Positions 15,001-61,710 of a stretch of DNA of 64,000 nt are shown one piece after another. The position numbers and the translations under genes were made by a program. This DNA is from Octopus vulgaris (Eukaryota). A model generated the notes under the pieces. The model was not told the DNA's origin. It saw only the letters and a list, made by a program, of their open reading frames with translations, and did no database searches. The DNA is taken from contig OX597831.1 of the NCBI GenBank assembly GCA_951406725.2, positions 61,380,001 to 61,444,000 on the forward strand. The letters run 5' to 3'. The stretch's first letter is position 1, and each line of letters starts with the position of its first letter.

Positions 15001-15247
15001 GTAATGACAGAGTTTAAAGTTTCTGACAAGTAAAATTCTCAATAAAACATTTTTATGTTGCTCGTATATAAAATGTAGATTTGAATTCCTTAATATTCTT
15101 GGCAAATCATTCCCTTACAAATCTGAGTGTGTAACGACTAGACAGCAAGTTATTTATTCAATTTCTTACAAACACATGTAGCCTCATATATACAGTATAA
15201 AAGGTTGTAAGTTTTGTATGATCCAAATGACATACAGTTAAAACAAT

Positions 15248-15665
15248 ATCTATTTCTTTACTACCCACAAGGGGCTAAACATGGAGAGGACAAACAAGGA
15301 CAGACAAACAGATTAAGTCGATTATATCGAACCCAGTGCATAACTGGTACTTATTTAATCGACCCTGAAAGGATGAAAGGCAAAGTCGACCTCGGTGGAA
15401 TTTGAACTCAGAACGTAGCGGCAGATGAAATACCTATTTCTTTACTACCTACAAGGAGCTAAACACAGAGAGGACAAACAAGGACAGACAAACGGATTAA
15501 GTCAATTACATCGACCCCAGTGTGTAACTGGTACTTAATTTATCGACCCTGAAAGGATGAAAGGCAAAGTCGACCTCAGTGGAATTTGAACTCAGAACGT
15601 AACGGGAGACGAAATACCACTAAGCATCTTGCCCAGCATGCTAACGATTCTTCCAGCTCGCCGTC
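15248..15665 (-). mobile_element. SINE family B, tandem dimer (full copy plus 5'-truncated copy)
   Basis: Two consecutive CTATTTCTTTACTACC..GGAATTTGAACTCAGAACGT units; the head GGCGAGCTGG.AGAA is present only in the right unit. Confidence 0.85.
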
Positions 15666-15691
15666 TTTAAAACGAAATTAATGAACAACAT

Positions 15692-15726
15692 TAATCGATT
15701 TTCGAACCTTATCGGGTTCTCATCAG
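15692..15726 (-). ncRNA. Hammerhead ribozyme core (minimal type I), stem I not closed
   Basis: CTGATGA-GAACC-cgataa-GGTTC-GAAA-ATCGATTA: intact core, 5-bp stem II, palindromic stem III ending in UUA. Confidence 0.5.
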
Positions 15727-15858
15727 AGGAGTCCATACCATTCTGACTGTCTTTTTGAAGAGAAATTTAATTAATAGCTTATACTTACTCCAAATATTTG
15801 CCAATAAAACAACTCTGATTACCTAATGTTTGGATTTTAATAAAACACTAAGTTTGCA

Positions 15859-16202
15859 AAATTAGAAATATTGAATTTCTAAATGTCTCAGAAAGACATG
15901 AGCAGTGGTGGGGCGATATAGTGGTTGTATAAAGTCAACATAACGTGACAGTCCTGTAAAGGGAATCACACCACCACTATTTAGCCCTAGGAAGCATCAG
16001 TGCTTCCTGTCGGCTTTGACACATTTCCTGTGTCCTTATATTTGCAAAGGGGAGGCAAGCACCCCCGCCAGCTAGGATTAGCATGGACACAGGAAATGTG
16101 TCAAGGCTTACAGGAAGTGTCGATGCTTCCTGGGGCTAAATAGCGGTGGTGTGATTCCCTTGACAGGACTGTCATGTTGAGTTGACAGTATACAACAACT
16201 AT
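15859..16202. mobile_element. Unclassified foldback element with 12-bp TSD
   Basis: Inverted arms 15917-16035 and 16085-16203; direct repeat ACTAAGTTTGCA at 15847 and 16203; relative at 60883. Confidence 0.8.
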
Positions 16203-16477
16203 ACTAAGTTTGCAGTTTTTGATAAAACACAAACTCCATCATTTTATTGAATTTATAACTAAATTTACAATAACATCTTTTGGTTACAACTTCATTGTGT
16301 TTCTAATGGTGTGAGTGACAGGGAATGTTAGTAACTTTGTGGCTTTTAGTGAAACACTGTTTTAGGGGTATTCAGGCTGATGAAGTTTTACCTTAACTGA
16401 CATACATTATCAAAAGATATTCACACATACATTTAAGTGCCATGCATTTGGACTCAACTCAAAATCAAATGCCTTCA

Positions 16478-21885: not shown

Positions 21886-22161
21886 AACATGGTCCATGAA
21901 TGCAGAGGGCATGCAAAGTCTAGAAATAAATGAGACAGCATTGCTTTGCTGAATATACAACATCAGTGTGCATCTATGACAAAGTACAAACATACTGAGA
22001 GAAAAATTTGGTATAAGAGGAATCAGATGTGGAATGAAAGAGAGGATGCTGCATTAGTATGGTTATGTGATGACAGCTGCAAAAAGAAGAGCTGACTGTT
22101 AAATATAGATGGAATCTTTTGATGGGAGAAAAGTAGTAAATGTGGGATGAAACAGTGAATA

Positions 22162-32999: not shown

Positions 33000-33033
<34 letters not shown>

Positions 33034-33035
<2 letters not shown>

Positions 33036-33536
33036 AGTAGTATCAAAATTTTTTGTCGAACACTTTACATCATATGTACCAGGAATATGCATCTCCAAGA
33101 TACTTGGCCAAGGTATTTTACAGAAGATTAGCACCTGCCCATGTGTGTGAGACTCGCATTTAATTGCCTCTGACATTGTCCAAGAGAAAAGTAAATGTGC
33201 TCTGCTTGACTCCCCTGTTGAGATAGGAAATACCTTAGAATGCAAAGTGCTGGAACAGTTACAACATGGCATCCTACCACATACACTAACATTGCAACTA
33301 TTCCACCTTCCCAAGCTGTTTGTTACTTAATTTTCCGTACGTGGAAATATGAAAGGAAAAATTGCTAGTTTTGAACTCAGAGCACAAGACGTAGAACAAA
33401 CACCTCCAAGTATTTTATCCATTTCTCTGATGCCTTTGCCAATTCACCATATTGCTTGGGGATACACAGTGTACTTTATAGATATGCCTAGTCAAAGTAT
33501 CATAAAAGCATGATGATAATGATATACACACATACG

Positions 33537-33590
<54 letters not shown>

Positions 33591-33727
33591 CACACACACA
33601 CATACATGAGTCTTTCACACATGGGCAGCTGCTAGTCTTCTGTAAAATACCTTGGCCAAGTATCTTGGAGATGCATATTCCTGATACATATGACGTATAG
33701 TGTTTGACAAAAAATTTCGATACTACT

Positions 33728-33729
<2 letters not shown>
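33034..33729. repeat. Long inverted repeat, 122-bp arms flanked by (TA)n
   Basis: 33034-33155 versus reverse complement of 33608-33729: 9 mismatches by eye, no gaps. Confidence 0.9.
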
Positions 33730-33768
<39 letters not shown>

Positions 33769-34243: not shown

Positions 34244-34302
34244 ATTCTAGATCCCGGATTTCTGGCTTTGCATCTAGAAATGCTTTGCCTCATCAGTAGA
34301 AT
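34244..34302 (-). ncRNA. Type I hammerhead ribozyme candidate
   Basis: ATTCTA-CTGATGA-GGC aaa GCAT ttctag ATGC aaa GCC-a-GAAA-TC cgg GA-TC-TAGAAT: all three stems close, AUC cleavage triplet, one extra A before GAAA. Confidence 0.65.
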
Positions 34303-49390: not shown

Positions 49391-49769
49391 TATGAATTAG
49401 AAAAAAAAAACCAACTCTTATCAATTCAATAATGAAAAATTAAATTACATATTAATCTTTCTATTAATTTTCTAGAGGGTATAATTTAATTTTTCATTAT
49501 GGAATTGATAAGAAGTGGGTTTTTTTTTCTACTTCATATATATATATATATATTATATTTTGGGAAATTTGATTTACTATTTCTAAATTGGATTTTTCCC
49601 TGTAAGTTTCGAATAATATTCCCTCATATATATATATATATATATATTCAACAATATTAAGGAATTGTTGAATTTATATATATATAGTCTGTGACTACTT
49701 CTCTTTCTCACTAGGCCACTGGTGGCGAAAAATTTTTTTTGAATTTTTTTGCTACCCTTATATTGATTA

Positions 49770-60762: not shown

Positions 60763-60882
60763 AATACAAGGTTATCAAGAAAGCACATTAGGTATTAGGA
60801 TTTTTGTGAATAAATTAATATGAATATATATACTGGTTTCTGGTTTGTTAACTGCTTGTTTAGTGAAATTACCTAATAATTA

Positions 60883-61073
60883 GAAATATTGAATTTCTAA
60901 ATGTCTCAAAGAGACATGAGCGGTGGTGTAGCGATAGAGTGGTTGTATAATGTCAAGGACACAGGAAATGTGTCAAAGCCGACAGGAAGCATCGATGCTT
61001 CCTAGGGCTATATAGCGGTGGTGTAATTCCCTTTACAGGACTGTCACATTATGTTGACATTATACAACCACTC
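60883..61073. mobile_element. Second, internally deleted copy of the foldback element, 13-bp TSD
   Basis: TACCTAATAATTA at 60870 and 61074; same head and right arm as 15859-16202. Confidence 0.8.
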
Positions 61074-61710
61074 TACCTAATAATTATTTTGTTGAATTTT
61101 TCATTTGTGATTATCTATATCTCTTGTAGAGTCTTCTATTTTTAGCGCTATGATTTTGTCTTGAGTATTATTAAAATAACCTGCTGGTTTCTATTTCTAG
61201 CATATTGTAAGACCACGTAACGACTCACTTGTTGCGATTCCTCATATCAAGAACGTTGAGATAACGGGCAGCTGCTGATAGGCAAGCTATTCGTATTTCA
61301 ATTTCAAAGCCTTGCCACATTACAGCTATTCAACAACAATAGGACCCTTAACAACAACAGGGCATGACAGCATCCATATCAAATGACAGATTAATAACAG
61401 TTAATATCATATAAATGTTTACCTTGCACTACATAGGATGATATTAAATTTGATATGACAAAGAAATCTGTCAAGCATTTCATTCATTAGCAGTTAAATC
61501 TATCAATAGATCAATAAAATCACTATTTAATTAGTGATATTGTTTAAAGTCTTCAATGGACAACAATAGAGGAGAGCTGTACGAAACAAAACTAAATAAA
61601 TAACACTGAATACAATTTTTATAGAATATTCTATATTTTACGCTTTATTATAATGATATGGAGCGATATATAAATAAATGTGACTTTTATTAGCAAAGTG
61701 ACTTCATGTG

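What the first reader, a model, noticed from the sequence alone, without database searches (positions are those of the whole stretch)
15847..16214. Unclassified, highly structured hairpin mobile element with long variable TSDs
Seen: an asymmetric element with a ~60-bp head holding two small hairpins (TTAGAAAT/ATTTCTAA and ATGTCT/AGACAT), then ~119-bp inverted arms around a ~49-nt loop. Each arm carries its own palindrome (AGGAAGCATCGATGCTTCCT type). It is bracketed by a 12-bp direct repeat, and a second copy at 60883 has a different 13-bp TSD. There is no tRNA head, poly(A), simple-repeat tail, ORF or true terminal inverted repeat. Established: long variable TSDs point to target-primed reverse transcription, not cut-and-paste. 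Inference: a non-autonomous retroposed structured RNA, and a natural Dicer/ADAR substrate. This is the best candidate here for an undescribed system.
Basis: partly seen in the sequence, partly recalled or inferred. Interest (0 to 1): 0.75.

Follow-up and report, generated by a model that had tools for sequence, protein, structure and literature searches.

The report
Penelope-pasted hammerhead retrozyme fragment
This hairpin is a truncated, back-to-back insertion of a 350-base non-coding repeat whose full unit carries a predicted self-cutting hammerhead RNA, a known kind of element (retrozyme) that was likely pasted in by a Penelope-type retrotransposon enzyme copying from both cut DNA strands.

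Summary
The anatomy is real: 12-bp duplication, two small hairpins, 119-bp arms 87% alike. But the hairpin is not the unit. It is a 5'-truncated piece of a 350-359-bp tandem monomer (374 exact head matches genome-wide), with the window minus strand as sense. The full monomer carries a type I hammerhead with covarying helices; the window copy stops 0-6 nt short of its predicted cleavage site. Arm lengths vary from copy to copy. Copies have two fixed 3' ends, monomer position 1 (the 'head') and 55-59. Of 65 inverted copies with both ends classifiable, 62 have the head at exactly one end. Duplications are mostly 12-13 bp, not widely variable. This is the published Penelope-like element (PLE) footprint: partial tandems, an inverted copy and a one-sided tail. 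Protein-coding PLEs in this genome follow the same rule (11 of 11 pairs in one family, tail about 54-59 nt). Verdict: a new member of the non-LTR retrozymes / non-autonomous PLEs, not an undescribed system. No coding partner is linked by sequence. Cleavage, circles and Dicer/ADAR action are untested. This scan already noted the same kind of element elsewhere in this genome.

The parts
15847..15858 (+). left target-site duplication, 12 bp
   Evidence: identical to 16203-16214
15862..15916 (-).
   Evidence: fixed end in 91 mapped termini; fold z -2.9; present at one end only of inverted copies
15917..16083 (-). body of the tailed arm, monomer about 56-222. Includes the internal palindrome and the 3' strand of the hammerhead's extended helix I; ends 0-6 nt before the predicted cleavage site (monomer 228/229)
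   Evidence: In four sequencing runs, family contigs continue from 16083 into the hammerhead (loose ends)
16085..16203 (+). inverted tail-less arm, monomer about 174 to 56 (second fixed 3' end), joined to the first arm over a 1-3 nt overlap; carries a different family variant than the first arm
   Evidence: the arms differ at monomer 71, 72, 79 and 80; both variants are common, 31 and 63 segments
16203..16214 (+). right target-site duplication, 12 bp (first base shared with the arm end)
60870..61086 (.). second insertion of the family: 13-bp duplication, tailed arm monomer 1-77, inverted tail-less arm 176-56

Best explanation
The element is a 5'-truncated, inverted insertion of a ~350-bp tandem repeat carrying a predicted type I hammerhead ribozyme (a non-LTR retrozyme), likely written into the genome in trans by a Penelope-like RT/GIY-YIG protein. 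Inferred steps: (1) tandem copies are transcribed on the window's minus strand, and the hammerhead would cut the RNA at monomer 228/229, giving linear and perhaps circular units; (2) the PLE protein would nick both strands of AT-rich DNA 12-13 bp apart; (3) each nick would prime its own cDNA inside the RNA, one at position 1 (with the tail) and the other at 55-59 (without it); (4) each cDNA stops at a variable point, more often just before the ribozyme-cut RNA end, or runs on into the next unit; (5) the two cDNAs are joined back to back, giving the hairpin and the duplication. Shown: unit, ends, duplications, covariation, end pairing. Inferred: the enzyme, cleavage, and the order of events.
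For: Tandem units of 350-359 bp joined end to start. Hammerhead core pattern: 340 matches against 1 in the control. In 26 copies, proximal helix I is 94% paired with 3 of 6 pairs changed on both sides, helix II is 92% paired, and 26 cells show double changes against 10 in shuffles, 0 of 500 as high. Outer ends cluster at 1 and 54-60. Of 79 inverted copies, 65 have two classifiable ends: 62 have one tail, 2 have two and 1 has none. In the hammerhead-selected sample, which is blind to ends, it is 8 of 8. Duplications occur in 24 of 28 such copies with unique flanks, against 14 of 756 swapped-flank controls; 34 of 62 lie in simple repeats. In 16 of 44 simple pairs neither arm contains the other. 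Arm ends occur at 0.94 per 100 nt just before the cleavage site against 0.23 after it. Coding PLEs of this genome show the same one-sided tail: 10 of 10 inverted pairs among 20 loci plus 1 pair in one family, and 3 of 5 pairs readable in another. Literature: a PLE protein nicks and extends both strands and starts RT at two internal sites that bound the tail (PMC11167929).
Against: No coding PLE shares sequence with the monomer. There was no hit in 49 loci. Among 27 more loci there were only cassette-bearing loci and one stray 52-bp piece. The helper is therefore unnamed. Helix II opens with a C-A mismatch in most copies, and the energy minimum does not reproduce the catalytic fold in 3 of 3 copies folded (z -1.0 to -1.9). 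Rfam did not call a hammerhead in 7 loci. The covariation control ignores relatedness. The window copy itself lacks the core. The cleavage-site excess is modest (p about 0.03, bins chosen after seeing the data). In vitro, hammerhead cleavage was not needed for PLE insertion (PMC11167929). Arm similarity could also come from later conversion.
Confidence: 0.85

Rival explanations
1. Same family and PLE helper, but the inverted arm is made by fold-back (self-priming) of one cDNA, and later asymmetric deletion at the palindrome centre produces the unequal arms.
For: Arms of one insertion usually share variants: discordance at transversion marker sites is 29 of 258 (0.11) within copies against 0.37 between copies. 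Self-priming was proposed for PLE inversions (PMC3846280 passages). Long palindromes are unstable (recalled).
Against: In 16 of 44 simple pairs the tail-less arm reaches further while only the other arm has the tail. Either arm can carry the tail. The window's arms are two different common variants. Fold-back does not explain why the tail sits at exactly one end.
Confidence: 0.12
2. The copies are leftover pseudo-LTRs of a coding PLE that I did not find, not a self-contained non-coding unit.
For: A hammerhead and tail are typical of pLTRs (PMC8557442). Only 87 + 22 + 30 loci were mapped, out of hundreds.
Against: Units join directly end to start in many loci. The only long sequence repeatedly attached to the monomer encodes a zinc-knuckle protein without RT.
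Confidence: 0.1
3. A MITE or foldback DNA transposon whose arms are terminal inverted repeats.
For: Long inverted arms; frequent TA-repeat flanks.
Against: Arm length varies, ends are asymmetric, 47 of 109 loci are not inverted, and there are tandem units, 12-13-bp duplications and a covarying hammerhead.
Confidence: 0.01
4. A SINE-like RNA moved by a LINE, with inversions from L1-type twin priming.
For: Duplications of 10-15 bp and 5' truncation also fit LINE insertion; LINE-derived cassettes sit inside some monomers.
Against: There is no A-rich or simple-repeat 3' end of its own and there are two internal fixed ends. The arms duplicate the same sequence, whereas L1 twin priming inverts non-overlapping parts (recalled).
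Confidence: 0.03

Closest known systems
Metazoan non-LTR retrozymes (Cervera and de la Pena 2020, PMC7229834; Li, Clavereau and Pollet 2026, bioRxiv 10.64898/2026.07.22.740005)
   Same: Non-coding tandem unit of about 350 bp (mussel 350-390 bp), one type I hammerhead per unit, duplications longer than 4 bp, PLEs in the same genome.
   Different: Most copies here are dispersed fragments or at most about two units, and over half are inverted. The passages and sections I read do not describe inverted arms or tails for retrozymes. No sequence link to a coding PLE was found. Cleavage and circles are untested.
Endonuclease-positive Penelope-like elements (PMC8557442; PMC3846280; PAc in PMC11167929)
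   Same: 5' truncation, partial tandems, an inverted 5'-truncated copy, a tail at one end, AT-rich targets, two fixed internal 3' ends, and a hammerhead.
   Different: No ORF. The tail is 54-58 nt rather than 30-40. The hammerhead has an extended helix I rather than the minimal PLE form.
Coding PLE family of this genome (loci L229-L258, L281-L300; identified by RT and GIY-YIG-like motifs read in translation, motifs recalled, Pfam RT only E 0.07)
   Same: Tail of about 54-59 nt with an unpaired stretch followed by two hairpins, at one end of 11 of 11 inverted pairs; TA-repeat targets.
   Different: No BLASTN similarity to the monomer. It is a candidate helper only; another family has a 45-nt tail.

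Membership tests
Non-LTR retrozyme | Tandem unit of about 170-400 nt | tested here: met
   350-359-bp units joined end to start, up to about two per locus in my sample
Non-LTR retrozyme | Type I hammerhead in each unit | tested here: met
   Core plus helices I-III with double changes in 26 copies. Met for the family; the window copy is truncated before the core. Rfam gave no hammerhead call.
Non-LTR retrozyme | Target-site duplication longer than 4 bp | tested here: met
   10-15 bp in 24 of 28 inverted copies with unique flanks; only 2 of 29 non-inverted copies by the same strict rule
Non-LTR retrozyme | No RT-coding frame of its own | tested here: met
   Flank comparison and translations found only a zinc-knuckle cassette attached
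Non-LTR retrozyme | Self-cleavage of the transcript | not testable with these tools
   Only indirect: arm ends are enriched just before the predicted site
Non-LTR retrozyme | Abundant circular monomer RNA | tested here: inconclusive
   No run on record as RNA; contigs only
PLE-type insertion | 5' truncation and partial tandems | tested here: met
   131 inner ends spread from 17 to 346; tandems
PLE-type insertion | Inverted 5'-truncated copy with tail at one end | tested here: met
   62 of 65
PLE-type insertion | AT-rich or microsatellite targets | tested here: met
   34 of 62 inverted and 30 of 59 non-inverted copies have a simple-repeat flank; duplications are AT-rich
Autonomous PLE | RT plus GIY-YIG ORF | tested here: not met
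   None attached
Derivative of a named PLE family | Sequence shared with that family's pLTR | tested here: not met
   No link in 27 + 49 loci covering at least three coding families; not all families were sampled
MITE / foldback DNA transposon | Fixed terminal inverted repeats and a short fixed duplication | tested here: not met
Annotated Repbase/Dfam family | Match to a library entry | not testable with these tools
   No such library is offered

The most novel reading that the evidence does not exclude
A Penelope-type dimer binds the two-hairpin tail and primes the two nicked target strands at obligatorily different start sites, one on each side of the tail. It usually does so on one RNA but sometimes on two variants, as in the window copy, with a fixed 12-13-bp stagger. 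The helper is the coding family with the matching ~58-nt two-hairpin tail, which recognises structure rather than sequence.
Probability: 0.4. Interest if true: 0.6.

Novelty: new member of a known kind. Interest (0 to 1): 0.35.

Why it matters
As a family it is ordinary for animals with retrozymes. Its use is as a record of PLE integration, whose later steps are described as not yet validated (PMC11167929). That study saw two RT start sites and no difference between strands. The genomic copies add that within one insertion the two strands almost always use different sites (62 of 65 here, 11 of 11 in a coding family) and that the duplication appears mainly when both ends are 3' ends. This is a sharp prediction for an existing in vitro assay. 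It also supports the proposal that PLEs move retrozymes, using insertion footprints rather than co-occurrence.

Tried and rejected
Rfam on the window copy and on 7 fuller loci: only sub-threshold miRNA-type hairpin matches, and no hammerhead call on the family. Whole-window repeat finder: swamped by microsatellites. Search for a coding parent: the long body next to the monomer proved to be an RT-less zinc-knuckle cassette, and the coding PLE families sampled gave no BLASTN link. Protein database search with the cassette ORF: no hit at E <= 0.001 among proteins of 171-545 aa. Expression: no RNA holder listed, and contigs cannot show ends, strand or circles. Empty site: none seen. Two runs with other organism labels hold a contig running from the last 27-30 bases of the right arm into the flank, just under the tool's 31-letter rule, so a shared old insertion is only a hint. 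An estimate that a quarter of inverted copies use two templates was dropped, because tandem neighbours show the same discordance, 14 of 127. A by-eye likeness between the first 14 nt of the monomer tail and the coding tails was not tested. Two of five coding inverted pairs were unreadable in microsatellite. Sequence look-ups in earlier scan notes returned nothing for this family.

Full report
Observation. The described sequence is present at the given coordinates: a 12-bp direct repeat, two small hairpins, 119-bp arms and a 49-nt spacer. The second copy at 60880-61075 has a 13-bp duplication but almost no hairpin, because it keeps only 77 bases of one arm. The genome is 2.8 Gb in 227 contigs. 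Its repeats look like those of an octopus (recalled; earlier scan notes say the same).

The unit. A DNA search of the genome gave copies with arms of other lengths, copies without inversion and copies with a second head about 355 bases on. The unit is therefore a 350-359-bp monomer. An exact 28-mer of the head occurs 374 times, control 0; one insertion can hold more than one match. I mapped three samples on a natural monomer (L025). Sample A: 29 similarity-ranked loci plus the second window copy. Sample B: 87 loci from the first 100 listed head matches. Of those 100 rows, 90 were fetched as loci and 3 of these were dropped as duplicates; of the other 10, five fell inside a fetched region, four were already in A and one was not fetched. 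Sample C: 22 of 30 loci found by the hammerhead pattern (7 duplicates and 1 non-member dropped).

The ribozyme. On the window's minus strand the monomer holds the hammerhead core with a three-pair helix III closed by a palindromic loop; the pattern has 340 matches, control 1. Core and helix III were fixed by the pattern and prove nothing; helices I and II were free. In 26 copies the six proximal pairs of helix I are 94% paired with double changes at three pairs, helix II is 92% paired with one, and an extended helix I is 74% paired. Double-change cells number 26 against 10 in shuffles, and slid controls pair only 25-43%. Against: the base of helix II is a C-A mismatch in most copies, Rfam makes no call, and energy minima do not give the catalytic fold. 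The predicted cut lies between monomer 229 and 228. The window's long arm ends at 222, or at 228 if a 2-base gap is allowed. In sample B arms end at 0.94 per 100 nt in 201-228, 0.44-0.61 in 55-200 and 0.23-0.25 beyond 228 (114 arms; p 0.03 and 0.0006, bins chosen after the fact).

The ends. Outer ends cluster at position 1 and at 54-60. Of 79 inverted copies, 14 have one end elsewhere (truncated or interrupted). Of the other 65, 62 have one end at 1 and one near 55-59, 2 have both at 1 and 1 has both at 59. Samples A and B require a head and so under-count tail-less pairs, but they should favour two-headed pairs, and B has 1 of 35 (p about 1e-5 against one third). Sample C is blind to ends and gives 8 of 8. 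Duplications were found in 24 of 28 one-tail inverted copies with unique flanks, 19 of them 12-13 bp, against 14 of 756 swapped-flank controls. Only 2 of 29 non-inverted copies passed; this is a lower bound, since some are interrupted and a looser search saw a few more. About half of all copies sit in simple repeats, mostly TA.

Two cDNAs or one fold-back. In 16 of 44 simple pairs neither arm contains the other. Arms of one insertion mostly share variants (0.11 discordance against 0.37 between copies; shared rare variants 1.24 against 0.30 per 100 nt), which fits one template for both, fold-back or later conversion. The window copy is an exception: its arms carry two different common variants at four linked sites. 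Taken together, separate priming on each strand fits best; fold-back followed by asymmetric deletion is not excluded.

Control in coding elements. The genome has young coding PLEs: a 781-aa family with Pfam RT and GIY-YIG, a family with frames up to 1312 aa and a family around L229. In the last, 10 of 10 inverted pairs among 20 loci and one more pair carry a tail of about 54-59 nt at one end only. That tail folds as an unpaired stretch plus two hairpins, like the monomer's. The 1312-aa family has a 45-nt one-sided tail in 3 of 5 pairs; 2 were unreadable. No BLASTN similarity joins the monomer to these families, so the helper remains a candidate.

Literature. PMC8557442 (passages) lists 5' truncation, partial tandems, an inverted copy, a 30-40-bp tail often at one end, and hammerheads in pLTRs. 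PMC3846280 (passages) describes inverted pLTRs with an optional tail on one and 8-10-bp duplications. PMC11167929 (parts 1-2 of 4) shows cleavage and extension of both strands and two internal RT starts bounding the tail. PMC7229834 (passages and sections 14 and 17) defines non-LTR retrozymes, including 350-390-bp mussel repeats, and names PLEs as likely helpers; the word octopus does not occur in its main text. bioRxiv 10.64898/2026.07.22.740005 (parts 1-3 of 5) argues that retrozymes derive from PLEs, mainly in vertebrates. Four searches listed no paper on an octopus retrozyme or on strand-wise exclusion of the two start sites. Supplements, subscription papers, Repbase and Dfam were not seen and may hold this family.

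Earlier scan notes. Eight notes describe the same kind of element and the two-start-point reading at other places in this genome, and eight concern LINE-derived inserts in or beside such repeats (one note is in both lists). None matched this family by sequence. They are unchecked and are not used as support.

Verdict. Real, but a new member of a known kind: a retrozyme fragment with a PLE insertion footprint. Interest is moderate to low for the element and somewhat higher for the end-pairing rule as a test of PLE mechanism.

Noticed in passing
L141:5128-6764, L142, L178-L207; relatives L208-L225: A ~1.64-kb cassette with a ~460-aa zinc-knuckle, LINE-ORF1-like frame and no RT sits just 5' of hammerhead helix I (monomer about 256-286) in many of the 30 best DNA hits, with short duplications. 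The composites have themselves been re-inserted with PLE-type tandems and inversions. Relatives form ~1.8-kb tandem arrays without the monomer. Likely a half-LINE (HAL1/Tx1-like, recalled) with site preference.
   Followed up: partly
L179, L183, L184, L185, L188, L190, L191, L192, L198, L204: A second, diverged hammerhead monomer family hosts the same cassette at the equivalent site.
   Followed up: no
L144-L147, L229-L264, L275-L300: At least three young coding PLE families with many open frames (781 aa with an upstream 359-aa frame; up to 1312 aa; over 1000 aa), with one-sided tails of 45 and about 54-59 nt.
   Followed up: partly
window 33002-33761: Element with 154-bp inverted arms 94% alike, between TA runs; MITE-like.
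   Followed up: no
window 49395-49545: Another short AT-rich hairpin insertion between TA runs, unrelated in sequence.
   Followed up: no
window minus strand near 34296 and 45997: Hammerhead-like cores with 5-6 helix I pairs, possibly pLTR remnants of other PLEs.
   Followed up: no
window 15245-15728 and copies at 22158, 28612, 36530, 43251: A 184-bp-period dispersed repeat lies just left of the finding, and another abundant SINE-like repeat starts near 16476.
   Followed up: no
L022 (G000:C28:3.15 Mb): A copy ending at the predicted cleavage site abuts an AAT run and the end of a different non-LTR element.
   Followed up: no
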